Below are positions 2 to 11,530 of a DNA stretch of 12,739 nt, piece by piece. Where the stretch lies: positions 1-12,739 of the IMG/VR virus record IMGVR_UViG_3300032038_000051, one strand, 5' to 3'. Below the pieces are notes generated by a model that had not been told where the DNA came from, did no database searches, and worked only from the letters and a program-made list of their open reading frames with translations. Each line of letters opens with the position of its first letter. The stretch's first letter is position 1. A program made the translations under genes and the position numbers. This stretch comes from a virus (taxonomy: Duplodnaviria; Heunggongvirae; Uroviricota; Caudoviricetes).

Positions 2-262
2 CCGCTCTACATAGGCTTCCACGGCGGGCTCATGTACGGCACCAACGTCGGCGGCTCCACCACCGCGGGCGCCTGCGACGGGCACTACACGAACAAGCTC
101 GCGACCACCGGGGACAGGGAATGGCTTTCCTCGGGCGTCCTGTGGGGCTCCCGCAACGCCGGCCCTGCCTACGTCTACGGCGACTACGGGCTGGGCTCGG
201 GGAACTGGAGCATCTGGTCGCGGCTCTCTGGGGCTGGTCGGGGATTCGGGGGTGAATCGTAG
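2..262 (+). CDS. DGR target protein, C-terminal part (5'-truncated by window); probable CLec-fold receptor-binding/tail protein
   Basis: Frame 2 is open from the window edge (PLYIGFHGGLMYGTNVGGSTTAGACDGHY...REWLSSGVLWGSRNAGPAYVYGDYGLGSGNWSIWSRLSG...ES*). The last ~45 codons hold the VR. Tail-protein function is inferred from its position upstream of the lysis genes. Confidence 0.85.
   Translation, partial: PLYIGFHGGLMYGTNVGGSTTAGACDGHYTNKLATTGDREWLSSGVLWGSRNAGPAYVYGDYGLGSGNWSIWSRLSGAGRGFGGES
121..231 (+). repeat. DGR variable repeat (VR)
   Basis: Ungapped 111-nt match to 354-464 (offset 233). 14 mismatches (126,127,137,138,143,146,147,176,182,185,197,210,225,226), every one opposite an A in TR. 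Confidence 0.97.
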
Positions 263-274
263 CGAAGCGGAGAG

Positions 275-292
275 AGGGGGCGTAAGCCCCCT
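275..292 (+). other. DGR target-recognition hairpin/cruciform downstream of VR
   Basis: AGGGGGC-GTAA-GCCCCCT: perfect 7-bp GC-rich stem with 4-nt loop, 12 nt after the target stop codon, where DGR cruciforms usually lie. Confidence 0.8.
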
Positions 293-353
293 TGGTCCTC
301 CAAGGAACATACAACCGACGAAACTATCACTTTGGGGATTCGTGACGAGACCG

Positions 354-464
354 ATGGCAATCCTCGGGCAACCTGAGGAACTCCCGCAACGCCGGCCCTG
401 CCTACGTCAACGGCAACAACGGGCTGGGCACGGGGAACTGGAACATCTGGTCGCGGCAATCTGG
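354..464 (+). ncRNA. DGR template repeat (TR), part of the DGR RNA
   Basis: AAC-rich copy of the VR with 25 adenines. In the target frame the A-containing codons are 8 AAC, 2 CAA, AGG, TAC, ACG and ATC. Lies between target gene and RT. Confidence 0.97.
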
Positions 465-623
465 TTTGGCAATCTCAAGAGCACGACCGTCACGACTACC
501 TCGCGCGCGCCAGAGCGCGACGGGGCATGCCCGCTTAACCAAGCGAAATGGCCTCAAGACCACCGGGCTAGTAAGCGCATGCGGAAAACTCGGAAGGCAA
601 ACCAGAGATTGGGTCCATGGTCA

Positions 624-1673
624 ATGAAAACCTACCTAAGGAACTACGAGGTGTCCCGCACGGACGTCTGGGCGGCGCTTGCCGCGTGGAGGTCCGGCGA
701 GTCGGGGCACAAGAACGGCCACAGGGTGGCCGAGGAGTACGGCACCGACGCCGCGCTCGTCGAGGAGATATACGAGGAGATGCGTGGCCGCAGGCTGACG
801 TTCAGGCCCATACGCCGCTACAGGCGCATGGAGCCGACCAACGGCAAGGTCCGCACCATAGGCGTCGAGTCGGTCAAGCAGCAGGTCTGCGACTACCTCG
901 TGACGACGCTGCTCGCCGACCTCTACGACGCGAGGCTCGGCTTCTACCAGGTGGCGTCCGTCAGGGACAAGGGGCAGCGCCTCTGTCGCGGGGCGCTCAG
1001 GAGGTGGGTGCGCGAGGGAGGCTACCACGTCAAGCTCGACGTGCGCAAGTGCTACCCGTCCACCCGCAAGGACGTCGCGATGGCCGTGTACACCAAGTAC
1101 GTGGGGAGCGAGGACGTCCTCTACGTCATATCCGCCATCCTCGGGACCTACGGTCGCGGGCTGGAGATAGGGAGCCTCTTCTCGCTGAGGACGATGCAGC
1201 TCGTCCTCTCCTTCGGCTACCACCACGTCGAGTCGCTCCACAAGGAGCGCCGCGGCAGGATGGTCCGCCTCGTGGCCCACCAGATATGGCACATGGACGA
1301 CGTGCTGCTCACCGGCCCGAGCAAGCGCGACCTGAAGATGGCCGTGCGCAGCCTCGAGCGCTACCTGTCGTCGGAGTTCGGGCTGACGCTCAAGCCGTGG
1401 AAGGTCGCCCGCACCTGCGACGCCGAGCCGCTGGACCTCGGCGGCTGGGTCGTGAGGGAGCGCCGGGCGACCATCAGGGGCGCGACGTTCCTGCGCGGCA
1501 TGAGGTCGTTCCGCGACTTCGAGAGGCGACCCACCGTCGGCAAGGCGAGGAGGTGCACGGCCTACTGGGGATGGTTCGCCAACGGCGACAACGGCGGGGT
1601 GATGCACCGCAACCACATGGGCAGCACGTTCGCGCACGCGAGGTCGCTCGTGTCGAGGGCCGAGAGGCCGTAG
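624..1673 (+). CDS. DGR reverse transcriptase (~349 aa)
   Basis: RT motifs GKVRTIGV, YHVKLDVRKCYPS, GLEIGSLFS, WHMDDVLL, GLTLK, LDLGGW. ATG 624 chosen because the extension to 252 runs over the TR. Adjacent to a TR/VR pair. Confidence 0.93.
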   Translation: MKTYLRNYEVSRTDVWAALAAWRSGESGHKNGHRVAEEYGTDAALVEEIYEEMRGRRLTFRPIRRYRRMEPTNGKVRTIGVESVKQQVCDYLVTTLLADLYDARLGFYQVASVRDKGQRLCRGALRRWVREGGYHVKLDVRKCYPSTRKDVAMAVYTKYVGSEDVLYVISAILGTYGRGLEIGSLFSLRTMQLVLSFGYHHVESLHKERRGRMVRLVAHQIWHMDDVLLTGPSKRDLKMAVRSLERYLSSEFGLTLKPWKVARTCDAEPLDLGGWVVRERRATIRGATFLRGMRSFRDFERRPTVGKARRCTAYWGWFANGDNGGVMHRNHMGSTFAHARSLVSRAERP

Positions 1674-5877: not shown

Positions 5878-6092
5878 GTGACGTCCTCTCCACGATGCCC
5901 GCCAGAGCTACTGAGAGCGATTCTGACGGGACTTCTCGCCACCTCCGGTGCAGTTGGCCGTCCTGCGTTGGCGATGGCCGCAGAACGCCCGAGGGCCGCT
6001 TTCGGCGAAATCCGACGAAAGGGTTTTTTCTTGTCTTGGTCTTCTTTCCTTTGTTTTCTTCGCTTTGTCTTCTTCTCTTTTTATTCTTAGTT

Positions 6093-6222
6093 GCGGGTTT
6101 TCCGCTGCGGAAAACCCGCTGCGGAAAACCCGCTGCGGAAAACCCGCTGCGGAAAACCCGCTGCGGAAAACCCGCTGCGGAAAACCCGCTGCGGAAAACC
6201 CGCTGCGGAAAACCCGCTGCGG
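6093..6222. repeat. 14-bp tandem repeat (CCCGCTGCGGAAAA) x ~8.7, preceded by one inverted unit
   Basis: Units start at 6101 (C>T in first base), 6115, 6129, 6143, 6157, 6171, 6185, 6199, partial 6213-6222. 6093-6105 GCGGGTTTTCCGC is the reverse complement of 6107-6119. Confidence 0.95.
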
Positions 6223-6272
6223 TGACGGCGGTGTGGGGTGGGTATCGGAGCGGCGACGGCTGGGTATAAGCC

Positions 6273-7001: not shown

Positions 7002-7084
7002 TGACGCCAAACACCATACCGGGCCTCGCGATGCTCGCCCTAATAGCGATCATGGTCGCGAGCGACAGACACTTTAAGTTTTAG
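7001..7084 (+). CDS. 27-aa hydrophobic peptide MTPNTIPGLAMLALIAIMVASDRHFKF (not in the ORF track)
   Basis: TAATG overlap with the cro stop (translational coupling), one TM-like stretch. CRISPR spacer 8 encodes a near-synonymous homologous segment, supporting coding constraint. Confidence 0.65.
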   Translation: MTPNTIPGLAMLALIAIMVASDRHFKF

Positions 7085-7887: not shown

Positions 7888-8133
7888 ATGGCCGAAGATA
7901 AGAACGCAGACGGACGCGAGAGCACTGACCGCGAGGCCCGCATAAGGGCGCTTGACTTGACGATCCTGGTCGTCTCCGAGACGGTGCGAGACGCCGCGGA
8001 GGCCGCGTCGAAGTTCGGATTCGCGCCGGACGCAATGGCAGCGCTCACGCAGTCGACCGACGCGCTGTGCAGGCTCGCGCACGAGGCGACCGCGATCGAG
8101 GTCGAGCTCGCTGACGTGCCCGAGAAAGCATAG
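7888..8133 (+). CDS. Hypothetical protein (81 aa, helical)
   Basis: GGAGGA RBS before ATG 7888, phage-like codon usage; real part of the 7465..8133 ORF. Confidence 0.7.
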   Translation: MAEDKNADGRESTDREARIRALDLTILVVSETVRDAAEAASKFGFAPDAMAALTQSTDALCRLAHEATAIEVELADVPEKA

Positions 8134-8145
8134 GCCACCATTAAC

Positions 8146-8217
8146 GCCCCGTTGGCCCAATGGACAAGGCGCTCGCCTCCTAAGCGAGAGCTCCGGGTTC
8201 GACTCCCGGACGGGGCA
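8146..8217 (+). tRNA. tRNA-Arg(CCU), CCA not fully encoded (ACCT)
   Basis: Acceptor GCCCCGT/ACGGGGC, D loop with TGG, anticodon stem CTCGC/GCGAG with loop CT-CCT-AA (anticodon 8179-8181), T arm CCGGG-TTCGACT-CCCGG. Confidence 0.93.
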
Positions 8218-8278
8218 CCTATGTATACACGGAGCGTCATGCGAGGCATCAGCGCGTCGCGCAAGCCGCTCCGTCATC

Positions 8279-8381
8279 TACCGTGTACCGCACGGGAAGT
8301 CACGCCTGTGGAGTGCTCTCAAGACCCTTCGGGGCAATGCACGACGAAGCAGGAACTCACGCCAGTCGTGGGTGGAGGTCC
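8279..8381 (+). ncRNA. Stand-alone TnpB omegaRNA (reRNA)-like scaffold 1
   Basis: TACCGTG-TACCG-CACGGGAA, ACGCCTGTGGAG (8302-8313), AAGAC, cTTCGg hairpin, GAAGCAGGAA (8346-8355), terminal stem CTCACG/CGTGGG, end GGAGGTCC. Same blocks and order as 10234-10364 and as IS605-group tnpB 3' ends (translated tail ACG...KQE). No tnpB ORF directly upstream. Confidence 0.8.
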
Positions 8382-8403
8382 GCGTATTCGCAGGTAGGGA
8401 AGT

Positions 8404-9036
8404 CTTTCACCCGCGCAAGCGTGGGAAGGTCCCATGTGCAAGCCTTTTTCCGTCACCTCTAGGCCTTTCACCCGCGCAAGCGTGGGAAGGTCCTACGTCG
8501 AAATCATCCACCGTGGCGCGCTGGACTTTCGCCCGCACGAGCGTGGGAAGGTCCGCTATAGCGAGGACGAGCTAAGCCCGGTCGAGCTTTCACCCGCGCA
8601 AGCGTGGGAAGGTCCGTGAGCCGAAAGCACGTCAACGACCTTCTAAGCTTTCACCCGCGCAAGCGTGGGAAGGTCTTAGCAATGGGCAACAACGCGAAAG
8701 AAAAGGCCCTTTCACCCGCGCAAGCGTGGGAAGGTCCACGTTAACGCGGAAGAAGGCCCGAGCCGCGTTCTTTCACCCGCGCAAGCGTGGGAAGGTCCGC
8801 TATAGCGAGGACGAGCTAAGCCCGGTCGAGCTTTCGCCCGCGCGAGCGTGGGAAGGTCCACGATCCACGGACTCGCGATGCTCGCCTTGGTCTTTCGCCC
8901 GCGTGAGTGAGGGAAGGTCCGCATGCCGTCGGCCAGGTCGATGAGGTCGAGCTTTCACCAGCGTGGGCGTGGGAAGGTCCGGGACAGCGTGAAGCGCGAT
9001 CCAAAGGCTTTCGCCCGCACGAGCGTGGGAAGGTCC
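8404..9036 (+). CRISPR. CRISPR array 1: 11 repeats (29 nt, CTTTCACCCGCGCAAGCGTGGGAAGGTCC), 10 spacers, type I-E-like repeat
   Basis: Repeats start at 8404, 8465, 8526, 8587, 8648, 8709, 8770, 8831, 8892, 8952, 9008. Spacers are 32 nt x8, then 31 and 27. 61-nt period. Degeneracy increases rightwards, so the leader is on the left. Confidence 0.97.
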
Positions 9037-9083
9037 TGGGCGTAGAGCGTGTCTACGACGACGACAACTAAAGAAGCGATAAT

Positions 9084-10214
9084 ATGATTAGTAGAGCATA
9101 TAAGTTCAGAATTTACCCGAACAAGACGCAGGCCGAACTCATCGAGGAGACGTTCAGGGCGTGCCGATACGTGTGGAACATCGCACTCGAATGCAAGAAG
9201 GTCGAATGGGATGACAGAGGAAAGAACGTTTCGGCGTACGAGCTGATGAAGCTCCTCACCGGCGTGAAGTCCGTATGCACATGGCTGTACGACGTGCCTA
9301 ACTCGGCCATGCAGCAGTCCATACGAGACCTCGACGTCGCGTTCAAGAACTTCTTCAGGCGAGTCAAGAACGGCGAGAAGCCCGGCTATCCGAAGTTCAA
9401 GAAGGCGGGATGCAGCTTCCAGAGCTACAGGACTCCTGCCGCCGGGAACGCGGTACGCGTCATCGACGACCGTCACGTCAAATTGCCGAAGCTCGGCAAG
9501 GTCAAGTGCCGCATCACGCAGACGCCGCAAGGACATCTGCTGAGCGCCACCGTCAGCAGGACTCCATCTGGAAAGTACTTCTGTTCGATAACGTGCGAGA
9601 ACGTGCCGGAGCCGTACATGGAAGACGGCACCCTCGACGTCATGGGCGTCCGTCTCGGCGTACGCGACCTCATCACGTGCTCGGACGGCGTGAGGGTCGA
9701 GAACCCGAGGGCGCTGTCGAAGTCCGAGAGGAAGCTCAGGCGCGAGCAGCGCAGGCTGAGCCGCAAAAAGAGGGGCTCGGCGAATTACAGGAAGCAGAAG
9801 CAGAAGGTCGCGCTGGTCCACGAGAGGGTCGCCAACCAGAGGAGAGACAACATCCACAAGGCGACCACGAGGATCGTCCGCGACAGCAAGGCGATCGCCG
9901 TGTCGTCCAACGACGTGGCTGGGATGATGCGCTCGAAGAAGTTCTCCAAGGCAGTCGCGGACGCGAGCATGTCGGAGGTCAAGCGGCAGCTGGCGTACAA
10001 GGCGCAGTGGTACGGGCGCGACCTCGTCGAGGTTGACGCGAGCACGGCGTTCGGCAGCACGTGCGGGCGATGCGGCGCGCAAGCGGAGCTCAAGGTCGGC
10101 ACGACTCGCTGGACGTGCCCGAAGTGCGGCGCCCACCACGACTACGCGCTGAACGCGGCAAGGAACATAGCGGCCATCGGCATGGCCGAGATCAGAAGGG
10201 GCGGGCGACCGTAA
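9084..10214 (+). CDS. tnpB: TnpB-family protein, predicted nuclease-dead (TldR-like)
   Basis: AYKFRIYPN HTH start, GYPKFK, LPKLG, ZnF CGRC/CPKC, NAARNI. RuvC-I GVRLG (D>R190), RuvC-II AVSSND (E>S274), RuvC-III HDYALN (D>A355). Confidence 0.92.
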   Translation: MISRAYKFRIYPNKTQAELIEETFRACRYVWNIALECKKVEWDDRGKNVSAYELMKLLTGVKSVCTWLYDVPNSAMQQSIRDLDVAFKNFFRRVKNGEKPGYPKFKKAGCSFQSYRTPAAGNAVRVIDDRHVKLPKLGKVKCRITQTPQGHLLSATVSRTPSGKYFCSITCENVPEPYMEDGTLDVMGVRLGVRDLITCSDGVRVENPRALSKSERKLRREQRRLSRKKRGSANYRKQKQKVALVHERVANQRRDNIHKATTRIVRDSKAIAVSSNDVAGMMRSKKFSKAVADASMSEVKRQLAYKAQWYGRDLVEVDASTAFGSTCGRCGAQAELKVGTTRWTCPKCGAHHDYALNAARNIAAIGMAEIRRGGRP

Positions 10215-10233
10215 GGCCGTCCGACGGCAGCGG

Positions 10234-10364
10234 TACCGCGTGTCACGCGGGAACCGGGAGAAATCCGAACGCCTGTGGAGACTGAGTAAGACCGGGCATC
10301 CCCGGCAATGGTCGCAGAAGCAGGAACCCGCATTCGTGGTGGCGAAAGCAAATGGGATTCGTCC
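10234..10364 (+). ncRNA. omegaRNA-like scaffold 2 downstream of tnpB
   Basis: TACCGCG-TGTCA-CGCGGGAA, ACGCCTGTGGAG (10269-10280), TAAGAC, hairpin CCGGG/CCCGG, GAAGCAGGAA (10317-10326), terminal stem CCCGCATT.../AATGGG, end ATTCGTCC. Usual position 3' of tnpB; out-of-frame NACGD and SQKQE tail remnants. Confidence 0.85.
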
Positions 10365-10395
10365 CGAGTCGACGCAAACGCGCAGGCAGCCTAGT

Positions 10396-10703
10396 GTGTC
10401 ACCCCCACGCATGTGGGATGGCCCCTCCGTGACGAATGCGGATCGCTTGTCCGCATGTGTCACCCCCACGCATGTGGGATGGCCCGCGCTAACGGCGGAG
10501 AGCTTGGAGAGATGTCGCCCGTACGCACGCGGGATGACCCGAGCAGATGAGGATTAACCGCGCGTCGCCCATACGTGTGTGGGATGACCCCAAGATCTGG
10601 AGGATTATGAGTCCTCTGTGCTGCGTCTCTCGTACGAGTGTTGGATGACCCGTCGTGAGTGACGAGGAGGAGAGGCGTCGCCTGCACGCATGTGAGATGA
10701 CCC
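10396..10703 (+). CRISPR. CRISPR-like array 2: 6 degenerate 29-nt repeats (GTGTCACCCCCACGCATGTGGGATGGCCC), 5 spacers
   Basis: Repeats at 10396 and 10457 are identical (61-nt period); degenerate copies at 10512, 10562, 10623 and 10675 all keep GTC at positions 3-5 and the GATGRCCC end. Spacers 32, 26, 21, 32, 23 nt. Confidence 0.85.
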
Positions 10704-10750
10704 CCCACGTCGCACGCCGCGCGCATGCGGCGTGCCCTAAGGAGTACGAA

Positions 10751-11530
10751 ATGTCAAACGAGACCAACCTCTCGACGGTCAACGGAGCGCTCGCCAACCT
10801 CGACGGGTTCCTCGCGTCCATCGACGACGCGAAGAGCGCCGACGACGCGCTGTGGCAGGCGAAGCTGATGGACGAGTTCCTGAGGAAGGCCGACGAGTGC
10901 GGCGAGTACGCGGCCGCCTTCTGCCTTCGCGAGGCCCAGATACTCGTGAGGGCCGCCTCCCTTCCCGACCACCTCGAGGTCAGGAGACGTAAGGGGATGA
11001 TAGCCTGGCTGCGGTCCAAGACGATCGAGCAGGTGCAGGAGATCCTCGACGAGTGCGCGACCGGCGTGCGCATAGGCGTGATAAAGGCGCGCGAGACCAG
11101 GGCGGCGAACGCGCAGGACTGCAGGGACCGCCAGATCGACGAGTTCAAGCGGATAAGCAGCAAGCTCATCGACGAGGTCGGCGCGACCGGACGAACCACG
11201 ATATCCGTCGAGCGCTTCTACGCCGAGTGGCGACTCGCCGAGACGCCTGACAGGCAGACGATGGCCGCGTTCAGGGAGAAGACCAAGAACGACGCGCTCG
11301 GGTTGGGCGCAGTGGGCCTCGGAGACGGCTCCGGCACGTACGCGATACCCGTGAAGTGCGACCGCGAGGACACGAGGCTCTACGTCGAGAACAGGCTGAG
11401 GTCGATGCACCATGACATCGTCTCGCTCACCAAGCATTGCAGGGCGTCGAACTTCGCCGTGGCCCACTGCGCGACCGACGCGCTCAGGGCGGACCTCGAC
11501 GAGCTGGAGGCGCTCAATGACCGAGATTGA
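10751..11530 (+). CDS. Hypothetical phage protein (259 aa)
   Basis: AAGGAG RBS before ATG 10751 (MSNETNLSTV...), strong GC3 bias; no family recognised. Confidence 0.75.
   Translation: MSNETNLSTVNGALANLDGFLASIDDAKSADDALWQAKLMDEFLRKADECGEYAAAFCLREAQILVRAASLPDHLEVRRRKGMIAWLRSKTIEQVQEILDECATGVRIGVIKARETRAANAQDCRDRQIDEFKRISSKLIDEVGATGRTTISVERFYAEWRLAETPDRQTMAAFREKTKNDALGLGAVGLGDGSGTYAIPVKCDREDTRLYVENRLRSMHHDIVSLTKHCRASNFAVAHCATDALRADLDELEALNDRD

What the first reader, a model, noticed from the sequence alone, without database searches (positions are those of the whole stretch)
8356..10424. Each omegaRNA scaffold carries an anti-repeat that co-varies with its own array's repeat (tracrRNA-like pairing)
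Scaffold 1 arm CTCACGC (8356-8362, right after GAAGCAGGAA) pairs 7/7 (one G-U) with GCGTGGG at repeat positions 16-22, present in 10 of 11 array-1 repeats. Scaffold 2 arm CCCGCAT (10327-10333, same position) pairs 7/7 (one G-U) with ATGTGGG of array-2 repeats 1-2. Swapped pairings are weaker (6 and about 5 contiguous bp). The repeat-1 end GCGTGGG-AA-GGTCC mimics the scaffold-1 end CGTGGG-TGGA-GGTCC, and its GGTC could pair with scaffold GACC (8323-8326) as the pseudoknot expected in omegaRNAs. A repeat could therefore replace the scaffold's own 3' strand and place the next spacer in the guide position, in trans or by alternative folding in one transcript.
Basis: partly seen in the sequence, partly recalled or inferred. 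Interest (0 to 1): 0.93.

Follow-up and report, generated by a model that had tools for sequence, protein, structure and literature searches.

The report
Guide scaffolds keyed to their own arrays
A cattle-gut phage carries a cutting-dead TnpB protein flanked by two guide-RNA scaffolds, each followed by a CRISPR-like array whose repeats are base-pair matched to that scaffold. This is a natural case of a transposon guide RNA split into a tracrRNA-like part and crRNA-like parts.

Summary
Both 7-bp arm/repeat matches sit at the stated coordinates, and the swapped pairs are weaker.

- **Architecture:** 19 scaffold-plus-array cassettes were compared, from this phage, five loci of its nuclease-dead TnpB clade and three active relatives. 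All share one layout, that of the ISDra2 omegaRNA.
- **Strongest match, and a new one:** a 3-5 bp pseudoknot joins the 5-nt loop of the first scaffold hairpin (TACCG 8286-8290; TGTCA 10241-10245) to the last bases of that cassette's own repeat. It covaries cassette by cassette. At the central pair there are four pair types and no unpaired cell in 14 cassettes. The same loop-tail rule holds in 69 active omegaRNAs.
GACC 8323-8326 shows no covariation.
this is the 5' strand of omegaRNA stem 4. Support is moderate: 75% of cells pair and 4 of 6 pairs covary. Each repeat also forms a stable hairpin of its own, which competes with it.

Spacers differ between cattle-gut samples while scaffolds stay conserved. 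The phage record holds no cas1, cas6e or tnpA.

The closest known kind is TranC (split omegaRNA, Cell 2025); here the effector is dead, as in TldR. This scan has noted scaffold-plus-mini-array cassettes on other DNA before. It is a new variant of a known kind.

The parts
8146..8219 (+). tRNA-Arg(CCT) directly upstream of scaffold 1; a possible processing handle for the 5' end of the scaffold
   Evidence: ARAGORN; Rfam tRNA 61.5 bits. The processing role is inference.
8281..8295 (+). Scaffold 1, first hairpin (stems 8281-8285 and 8291-8295; loop TACCG 8286-8290). ACC 8287-8289 is the proposed pseudoknot 5' strand, pairing with GGT of the repeat tail.
   Evidence: Stem 100% paired with 5 of 5 pairs covarying in 14 cassettes; loop/tail covariation; table of 19 cassettes; same rule in 69 active omegaRNAs.
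8305..8355 (+). Scaffold 1 core, RAGATH-18-like (stem 2: 8305-8309 with 8349-8353)
   Evidence: Rfam RF03064 30.4 bits, E 0.02, below the gathering score. Stem 2 is 96% paired with 4 covarying pairs. Paired change 8305 C>T with 8353 G>A in other samples.
8323..8326 (+).
   Evidence: No covariation with repeat tails: 66% paired, equal to shuffles, no double changes.
8356..8362 (+). Scaffold 1 arm CTCACGC: 5' strand of the stem-4 equivalent and candidate anti-repeat
   Evidence: Pairs 7/7 with GCGTGGG of the repeats; arm helix 75% paired with 4 of 6 pairs covarying; permutations.
8367..8381 (+). Scaffold 1's own stem-4 3' strand CGTGGG, linker TGGA and tail GGTCC. This scaffold keeps a complete omegaRNA 3' end.
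   Evidence: Direct reading; own hairpin -5.1 kcal/mol; compared with the active omegaRNA end in L028.
8382..8403 (+). 22 nt between scaffold 1 and repeat 1. It lies in the guide position of scaffold 1 and holds the conserved leader-end motif GCAGGTAGGGAAGT (8390-8403).
   Evidence: The motif GCAGGTnnnnnAGT stands before the first repeat in most I-E-like cassettes.
8404..9036 (+). Array 1: 11 repeats of 29 nt, period mostly 61, with tail AAGGTCC
   Evidence: Spacers are replaced between conserved repeats in other samples.
9084..10214 (+). TnpB homologue, 376 aa, with the RuvC triad replaced (R190, S274, A355)
   Evidence: Pfam HTH_OrfB_IS605, OrfB_IS605 and Cas12f1-like_TNB; alignment to ISDra2 TnpB 8EXA, E 2e-72; triad in 137 homologues; dead clade is one branch, support 100.
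10236..10250 (+). Scaffold 2, first hairpin (loop TGTCA 10241-10245). GTCA pairs with TGGC or TGAC of the array-2 repeat tails.
10272..10326 (+). Scaffold 2 core (stem 2 and inner stem), just downstream of the tnpB stop codon (gene ends 10214)
   Evidence: Alignment to scaffold 1 and to 12 other cassettes.
10327..10333 (+). Scaffold 2 arm CCCGCAT, candidate anti-repeat
   Evidence: Pairs 7/7 with ATGTGGG of repeats 1-2 and with GTGTGGG of repeat 4; fewer pairs in the eroded repeats.
10334..10395 (+). Scaffold 2 extension: weak own stem 4, conserved GCGAAAnCnAATG module, and leader-end motif GCAGGCAGCCTAGT (10382-10395). It has no pseudoknot-competent tail of its own.
10396..10703 (+). Array 2: 6 repeats of 29 nt, progressively eroded, with tail ATGGCCC or ATGACCC
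   Evidence: Spacer replacement in other samples.

Best explanation
The window holds two guide cassettes that serve one nuclease-dead TnpB. Each cassette is an omegaRNA-derived scaffold (first hairpin, stems 2-3, then the 5' strand of stem 4) followed by an array. The 3' part of every repeat reproduces the crRNA-like half of the omegaRNA: the stem-4 3' strand, then a 5-7 nt tail that lies just before the guide. A repeat-spacer unit docks on its own scaffold through two contacts. (i) A pseudoknot forms between the repeat tail and the loop of the scaffold's first hairpin. This contact covaries cassette by cassette and is shown by comparison. (ii) A stem-4-like duplex forms between the arm after GGAA and the repeat's 3' arm. 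Docking puts the spacer where the omegaRNA guide sits, so the dead TnpB would bind matching DNA without cutting it. That gives a multiplexed, renewable version of TldR-type silencing. Binding and silencing are inferred, not shown. Scaffold 1 also keeps a full omegaRNA 3' end, so it could act alone. The layout predates the loss of the nuclease, because active sister TnpBs in related phages carry the same cassettes.
For: The anatomy maps onto the solved ISDra2 omegaRNA: stem 2, stem 4 joined by a loop, a pseudoknot strand at -6 to -2, then the guide; its authors call it a natural sgRNA. On 14 cassettes the pseudoknot pairs are 87% paired. The central pair reads CG 6, GC 5, UA 2, UG 1, with none unpaired. 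The whole structure scores 0 of 500 shuffles and collapses when partners are slid by 1-3 columns. All 19 cassettes have 3-5 contiguous loop/tail pairs, with nine different loops each matched to its tail. Own-versus-swapped permutation gives 0 of 20000. Inside single phages the cassettes carry different matched codes: L003 has TGCCG/TGGCC and TGGCG/TGCCC; L024 has GGTCA/TGACC and GGCCA/TGGCC; this window has TACCG/GGT and TGTCA/TGRC. The loop/tail rule is independently seen in 69 active omegaRNAs (64% full pairing against 32 +/- 4% in shuffles, 0 of 2000). Arm helix: 75% paired, double changes in 4 of 6 pairs, own beats swapped, and up to 11 contiguous pairs in L267-b. Two scaffolds (L024-2, L003-4) lack a stem-4 3' strand of their own yet keep an arm complementary to their repeats. 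G-U pairs make the structures specific to the + strand. Scaffold changes in other samples are compensatory or neutral. All eight dead-clade proteins form one branch, and every member with flanking sequence has cassettes.
Against: There are no RNA data: no run on record as RNA was listed, so expression, processing sites and loading are all inferred. Each repeat's own hairpin (-11.4 and -10.7 kcal/mol) is more stable than the arm duplex (-9.6 and -9.7), and scaffold 1 closes its arm with its own 3' strand. Trans pairing of the arm would therefore need processing or protein help. The arm CCCATACG is kept in four cassettes whose repeats differ, and pair 4 is often A-C or A-G. The window's own W-1 pseudoknot is only 3 bp. 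Cassettes are related, so the permutation p-values overstate independence. No target of any spacer was found.
Confidence: 0.55

Rival explanations
1. The pseudoknot is the only trans contact. Each repeat's own hairpin serves as stem 4 in cis, as in a Cas12a-like self-folded handle. Alternatively the transcript is cut at the hairpin base, leaving only the tail plus spacer. Either way, only the tail pairs with the scaffold's first-hairpin loop. The arm/repeat complementarity is then inherited, because the repeat and the scaffold end share the same stem-4 3' strand.
For: The repeat self-hairpins are more stable than the arm duplexes. The scaffold-1 end and the repeat end are near-identical. The arm CCCATACG does not track repeat differences in L004-1/2/3 and L024-2. 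Contiguous arm pairing within the I-E-like type is not significant (p 0.085). The 7-8 nt tail equals the length of a type I-E 5' handle.
Against: Arms covary with repeats between repeat types: CAGGCT/AGTCTG, TCCT/AGGA, GCA/TGC, and an 11-bp match in L267-b. Scaffolds without their own stem-4 3' strand still keep complementary arms. The first two L003-1 repeats have poor self-hairpins but pair 5 bp with the arm.
Confidence: 0.28
2. The arrays are phage-borne type I-E-like mini-arrays used by the host's Cascade and Cas6e. The scaffolds are unrelated omegaRNA relics that merely lie beside them.
For: Array 1 has 29-nt repeats and 32-nt spacers (period 61), and the repeats have I-E-like hairpins. 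The phage has no cas1, yet spacers turn over between samples, which suggests that host adaptation proteins are used.
Against: Repeat tails differ between arrays of the same phage and covary with the loop of the adjacent scaffold. A single host Cascade would not require that. Some cassettes have 36-37 nt repeats of quite different sequence but obey the same tail rule. A scan of one genome for each of 185,579 species found no host array with GTGGGATGSCC repeat ends. The scaffold-array-tnpB layout is conserved in eight further loci, five of the dead clade and three active.
Confidence: 0.07
3. Chance or decay: the 7-bp GC-rich matches are coincidental, and the cassettes are non-functional remains of insertion sequences.
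For: Array 2 is eroded and spacer lengths are irregular. No targets were found.
Against: Covariation is present in stem 1, stem 2, the pseudoknot and the arm helix. Scaffolds and repeats are conserved at 90-99% across samples while spacers are exchanged. The dead clade persists over about 50% protein divergence with its cassettes intact.
Confidence: 0.03

Closest known systems
TranC (transposon-CRISPR intermediate) systems; Jin et al., Cell 2025, 188:6283. Known here only through citing papers (PMC13565253; bioRxiv 10.64898/2026.03.27.714800).
   Same: A TnpB-sized effector of IS605 descent sits next to CRISPR arrays without adaptation genes. The guide is understood as an omegaRNA functionally split into a tracrRNA and a crRNA. 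Some members are phage-borne. The active sisters of this clade (L267, L268, L269) fit this description.
   Different: The effector here has lost all three RuvC catalytic residues. Full scaffolds stand directly in front of each array, with two to four cassettes per phage. Repeats are 28-29 nt (I-E-like) or 36-37 nt. By sequence the protein is far closer to ISDra2 TnpB (E 2e-72) than to LaTranC (E 7e-21, C-terminal part only). Which TranC clade, if any, includes this lineage could not be checked because the paper is not held.
TldR, TnpB-like nuclease-dead repressors (Wiegand et al.; 10.1101/2023.11.30.569447; PMC13622181)
   Same: A TnpB homologue with an inactivated RuvC site, no transposon context, and an omegaRNA-like guide scaffold retained. 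One clade is phage-encoded. The expected action is RNA-guided binding and repression.
   Different: Described TldRs use one adjacent guide RNA with a fixed guide against a host promoter, and they travel with fliC or oppF. Here there are arrays with many exchangeable spacers and several scaffolds. The TldR paper's only mention of a CRISPR array is in its background section, not about TldR loci.
ISDra2 TnpB omegaRNA (PDB 8H1J, 8EXA; PMC10097598)
   Same: The protein is its best natural match in the PDB (E 2e-72). The RNA plan is the same: stem 1 with the pseudoknot strand in its loop, stem 2, stem 4, a pseudoknot 3' strand just before the guide.
   Different: ISDra2 has a single contiguous RNA with one guide set by the flank of the transposon. 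Here the 3' half is reiterated as array repeats, and the tail ends in CC instead of CAA.
Cas12f tracrRNA:crRNA (type V-F)
   Same: There are two repeat:anti-repeat contacts, one forming the pseudoknot and one forming the stem next to it. This is the correspondence drawn in PMC10097598.
   Different: Cas12f is an active nuclease that works as a dimer, has a separate tracrRNA gene, and belongs to a different protein lineage.

Membership tests
TranC (transposon-CRISPR intermediate) | TnpB-derived compact effector of IS605/IS607 descent | tested here: met
   Three Pfam TnpB domains; E 2e-72 to ISDra2 TnpB.
TranC (transposon-CRISPR intermediate) | CRISPR array adjacent to the effector | tested here: met
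   Arrays of 11 and 6 repeats flank the gene. The same holds in five dead-clade loci and three active relatives.
TranC (transposon-CRISPR intermediate) | Guide made of a tracrRNA and a crRNA that together reproduce the omegaRNA | tested here: inconclusive
   Loop/tail and arm/repeat covariation fit this, but no RNA data exist.
TranC (transposon-CRISPR intermediate) | RNA-guided DNA cleavage by an intact RuvC site | tested here: not met
   D191, E278 and D361 of ISDra2 align to R190, S274 and A355. Active sisters keep DED.
TldR (TnpB-like nuclease-dead repressor) | TnpB homologue with an inactivated RuvC triad and an otherwise kept fold | tested here: met
   The zinc-finger cysteines are invariant in the dead clade.
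TldR (TnpB-like nuclease-dead repressor) | Loss of transposon context (no tnpA) | tested here: met
   No Y1 transposase in the 78.6-kb record. Synteny with a phage gene is conserved. Transposon ends were not mapped.
TldR (TnpB-like nuclease-dead repressor) | A single adjacent guide RNA with a fixed guide to a host promoter, and linkage to fliC or oppF | tested here: not met
   There are multi-spacer arrays instead. No such neighbour genes were found.
Type I-E CRISPR array | 29-nt hairpin repeat and 32-33 nt spacers | tested here: met
   Array 1 has period 61.
Type I-E CRISPR array | One conserved 5' handle, and cas genes of the type (cas1, cas6e) in the element | tested here: not met
   Tails differ between arrays and track scaffold loops. 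No Cas1 or Cas6e in the record. The host genome is not known.
Rfam RAGATH-18 (RF03064) | Score at or above the gathering threshold | tested here: not met
   30.4 bits against 44.9, E 0.02, for 8305-8355. The outer and inner stems are nevertheless present.

The most novel reading that the evidence does not exclude
A phage-borne, nuclease-dead TnpB is programmed by several tracrRNA-like scaffolds. Each is addressed to its own renewable spacer array by a short pseudoknot code (first-hairpin loop against repeat tail). This would give the phage a multiplexed CRISPRi-like silencer aimed at rival phages or host genes. New spacers would be supplied by host adaptation proteins, because the phage has none. 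The different codes within one phage would keep the cassettes from cross-loading.
Probability: 0.3. Interest if true: 0.85.

Novelty: new variant of a known kind. Interest (0 to 1): 0.66.

Why it matters
If right, this lineage shows in natural sequence how a one-piece transposon guide RNA becomes a tracrRNA plus CRISPR repeats. One locus keeps a still-complete omegaRNA end (scaffold 1) beside scaffolds that have lost theirs. It also gives a simple, testable pairing rule: first-hairpin loop against repeat tail, 4-5 bp. That rule could be used to build orthogonal guide sets for miniature TnpB tools. The dead effector with exchangeable spacers would add a programmable, array-fed form to the known TldR-type repressors, carried by phages.

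Tried and rejected
Rejected: no covariation.
- **Viral-contig scan for arrays with GTGGGATGNCCC ends.** Only chance hits, tandem repeats or coding repeats, none with a TnpB.
- **Genome-contig scan with a similar two-repeat pattern.** 32 hits. None was a host I-E array or a prophage copy; the only real array was a three-repeat mini-array in Bifidobacterium cuniculi, L258.
- **Protein-pattern scan of metagenome contigs.** It added one dead-clade locus, L155.
- **Spacer targets.**
  - Nothing credible in GenBank phages.
  - Nothing credible in the loci held or in the phage's own genome beyond the known partial match of spacer 8 to 7025-7039.
  - No exact 20-mer of the duplicated spacer 3/7 in IMG/VR.
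- **A loop-versus-anywhere-downstream complementarity test on active omegaRNAs.** Uninformative (own 4.09 against shuffled 4.03). It was replaced by a position-specific test.
- **RNA evidence.** No RNA holder was listed among the public runs. Only DNA contigs could be laid.
- **Thermodynamic cofolding of scaffold plus repeat-spacer.** It gave spacer-dependent artefactual pairings and cannot model pseudoknots. Only the local energies were used.
- **The TranC paper itself** is not held.
Full report
**1. What is there**

The window is the first 12.7 kb of a 78.6-kb IMG/VR phage record. Recognisable genes include:
- a reverse-transcriptase-like ORF and a GH25/NlpC-P60 endolysin;
- an Xre-type repressor;
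- a tRNA-Arg(CCT) at 8146-8219.

Downstream of the tRNA the order is as follows:
- **Scaffold 1 (8281-8381).** It resembles an omegaRNA; its core gives a weak RAGATH-18 match. No tnpB gene precedes it.
- **A 22-nt spacer-like stretch (8382-8403).**
- **Array 1 (8404-9036).** Eleven 29-nt repeats.
- **A 376-aa TnpB gene (9084-10214).**
- **Scaffold 2 (10236 to about 10395).**
- **Array 2 (10396-10703).** Six eroding repeats.

The TnpB is most like ISDra2 TnpB (E 2e-72). The three RuvC catalytic residues D191, E278 and D361 are replaced by R190, S274 and A355. The phage record holds no cas1, cas6e or tnpA, and no further cassette.

**2. The observation**

Every sequence statement in the finding is correct:
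- The arms CTCACGC (8356-8362) and CCCGCAT (10327-10333) follow GAAGCAGGAA.
- Each pairs 7/7, with one G-U, with the 3' arm of its own array's repeat.
- Swapped pairs give 6 and 5 contiguous pairs. Their energies are weaker: -9.6 and -9.7 kcal/mol for own pairs against -6.4 and -7.9 for swapped pairs.
- The scaffold-1 end mirrors the repeat end.

**3. Mapping onto a solved omegaRNA**

In ISDra2 the guide is preceded by -1A, then a pseudoknot 3' strand (-6 to -2). Before that comes stem 4, whose loop joins a tracrRNA-like 5' part to a crRNA-like 3' part. The pseudoknot 5' strand lies inside the loop closed by stem 1 (PMC10097598).

- In scaffold 1, stem 2 is 8305-8309 with 8349-8353.
- Stem 4 is CTCACG/CGTGGG (8356-8372).
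- The tail is GGTCC (8377-8381).

The 3' part of each repeat (CGTGGG, AA, GGTCC) copies the stem-4 3' strand plus the pseudoknot strand. An active relative shows the same terminal hairpin plus tail as one continuous RNA (L028).

**4. Relatives**

Two searches of the 5.8-billion-protein library found eight proteins with a replaced triad, all with VMGVR at the first catalytic site. They stand among hundreds of DED-intact TnpBs. The eight form one branch with support 100, nested in active TnpBs.

Every dead-clade contig with flanking sequence carries scaffold-plus-array cassettes:
- L003 has four.
- L004 has three.
- L024 has three.
- L155 has three.
- L005, L025, L026 and L027 have partial ones.

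Three active close relatives carry the same cassettes upstream of the gene: P0014 in L267, P0017 in L268 and P0032 in L269. The array association is therefore older than the loss of the nuclease. The lineage as a whole looks like a TranC-type system.

**5. The pseudoknot code**

In all 19 cassettes the 5-nt loop of the first scaffold hairpin is complementary to the last bases of that cassette's repeats.

| Loop | Repeat tail |
|---|---|
| GGTCA | TGACC |
| GGCCA | TGGCC |
| GGGTA | TGCCC |
| TGCCG | TGGC |
| TGGCG | TGCC |
| TGGCA | TGCC |
| AAGTC | GACT |
| AAGAT | ATCT or GTCT |
| TGTCA (scaffold 2, this window) | TGGC or TGAC |
| TACCG (scaffold 1, this window) | GGT (pairs with ACC of the loop) |

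An alignment of 14 cassettes (A4) was scored with a fixed structure.

| Element | Cells paired | Covariation |
|---|---|---|
| Stem 1 | 100% | 5 of 5 pairs |
| Pseudoknot | 87% | central pair CG 6, GC 5, UA 2, UG 1, none unpaired |
| Stem 2 | 96% | 4 pairs |

The whole structure beats all 500 shuffles and collapses when partners are slid. Own-versus-swapped permutation gives 0 of 20000.

The same rule holds in 69 distinct active omegaRNAs. There, loop positions 2-5 pair with the four bases before the terminal A. Examples are GGAAC/GTTC, GGACG/CGTC, GGACA/TGTC and GGGCT/AGTC. Full pairing is seen in 64%, against 32 +/- 4% in shuffles.

GACC 8323-8326 is part of a nearly invariant AAGAC motif.

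**6. The arm (anti-repeat)**

On A4 the arm helix is 75% paired, with double changes in 4 of 6 pairs.

Points in favour:
- Between repeat types the arm changes with the repeat: CAGGCT with AGTCTG, GCA with TGC, TCCT with AGGA.
- L267-b shows 11 contiguous pairs, L004-1 eight, and the two window cassettes seven each.
- Within the I-E-like type alone, own pairing beats swapped pairing for pairs in register (p 5e-5) and for energy (p 3.5e-4).

Points against:
- Contiguous length within that type is not significant (p 0.085).
- The arm CCCATACG is shared by four cassettes with differing repeats.
- The fourth pair is often A-C or A-G.
- Every repeat can fold on itself more stably than it can pair with the arm.

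The arm contact is therefore plausible but not settled. The alternative is that the repeat hairpin itself plays stem 4.

**7. Dynamics**

Contigs from four cattle-gut metagenomes were laid on 8000-10800.
- Scaffolds, repeats and tnpB are conserved at about 90-99%.
- Different spacers sit between the same repeats. Examples are a joint 8494 to 8951 with 30 other letters, and a joint 10424 to 10681 with 38 other letters.
- Scaffold changes are compensatory (8305 C>T with 8353 G>A in stem 2) or neutral (8360 C>T keeps a G-U in stem 4).

So the arrays turn over spacers although the phage has no adaptation genes.

**8. What it most likely does**

Shown by comparison:
- The scaffold fold.
- The cassette-specific loop/tail pairing.
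- The repeat as a copy of the omegaRNA 3' half.
- The dead RuvC site.
- Spacer turnover.

Inferred:
- The units are transcribed (perhaps from the tRNA onward) and processed.
- They load onto the dead TnpB with the spacer in the guide position.
- The complex binds DNA without cutting it.

Targets and TAM are unknown. The only lead is the 24/32 match of spacer 8 to the phage's own 7013-7044. Its seed-proximal mismatches fit targeting of relatives rather than self.

**9. Comparison with what is known**

- **Closest kind: TranC.** It is an omegaRNA functionally split into tracrRNA and crRNA, with TnpB-sized effectors beside arrays, some of them in phages.
- **Dead effector: like TldR.** Described TldRs, however, use single fixed guides.
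- **RNA plan:** that of ISDra2, and it parallels the two repeat:anti-repeat contacts of Cas12f.
- **Earlier notes of this scan:** scaffold-plus-mini-array cassettes were noted on other DNA, including dead effectors. Those notes were not rechecked here.

What appears new is threefold: the loop/tail code shown by covariation, its use to key several cassettes to one dead TnpB within a phage, and the co-existence of complete and truncated scaffold ends.

**Verdict.** This is a new variant of a known kind.

Noticed in passing
window 8390-8403 and 10382-10395; L003, L004, L024, L155, L267, L268: A conserved motif GCAGGTnnnnnAGT stands immediately before the first repeat of almost every I-E-like cassette. 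In scaffold 1 it lies in the guide position. It could be a leader-repeat junction signal for spacer integration, or a relic of the ancestral insertion site.
   Followed up: partly
window 8555-8586 and 8799-8830: Spacers 3 and 7 of array 1 are identical over 32 nt. The repeat before spacer 3 (8526-8554) and the repeat after spacer 7 (8831-8859) are both the CTTTCG variant. This suggests a duplication within the array.
   Followed up: no
window 8860-8891 against 7013-7044: Spacer 8 matches a small early-region ORF of the same phage at 24/32 (15 contiguous). The mismatches cluster at the repeat-proximal end, as expected if the true target is a related phage.
   Followed up: partly
L003 1650-2270 and 3572-3965; L155 3900-4520; L024 5393-5775; L269 1190-1460: A second cassette type has 36-37 nt repeats of unrelated sequence. 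In three of them (L003-2, L003-3, L155-2) the scaffold keeps the canonical omegaRNA end GTCAA just before the array. All obey the same loop/tail rule.
   Followed up: partly
L076 3330-3700 (the same element in L099); L116 540-1140: Two other phage TnpB lineages (34% and 27% identical to this one) are also followed by an omegaRNA-like scaffold and a short array: three 29-nt repeats in one and five 37-nt repeats in the other.
   Followed up: no
window 252-1673: An ORF matching phage reverse transcriptases (PHROG 1423, E 8e-36; Pfam RVT_1 below threshold). It may belong to a diversity-generating or defence-type retroelement.
   Followed up: no
window 6074-6241: About nine tandem copies of a 14-nt unit (CCGCTGCGGAAAAC) lie next to the Xre-type repressor gene.
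   Followed up: no
window 10751-11530; L155 4588 onward; L003 2287 onward: A conserved gene with no Pfam or PHROG match always follows the last array. The cassette block therefore holds a fixed place in this phage group.
   Followed up: partly
L258 5170-5330 (Bifidobacterium cuniculi): An isolated three-repeat mini-array with repeat end GTGTGGGATGCCC and period 61, with a distant TnpB homologue (28% identical) about 400 bp away on the other strand.
   Followed up: no
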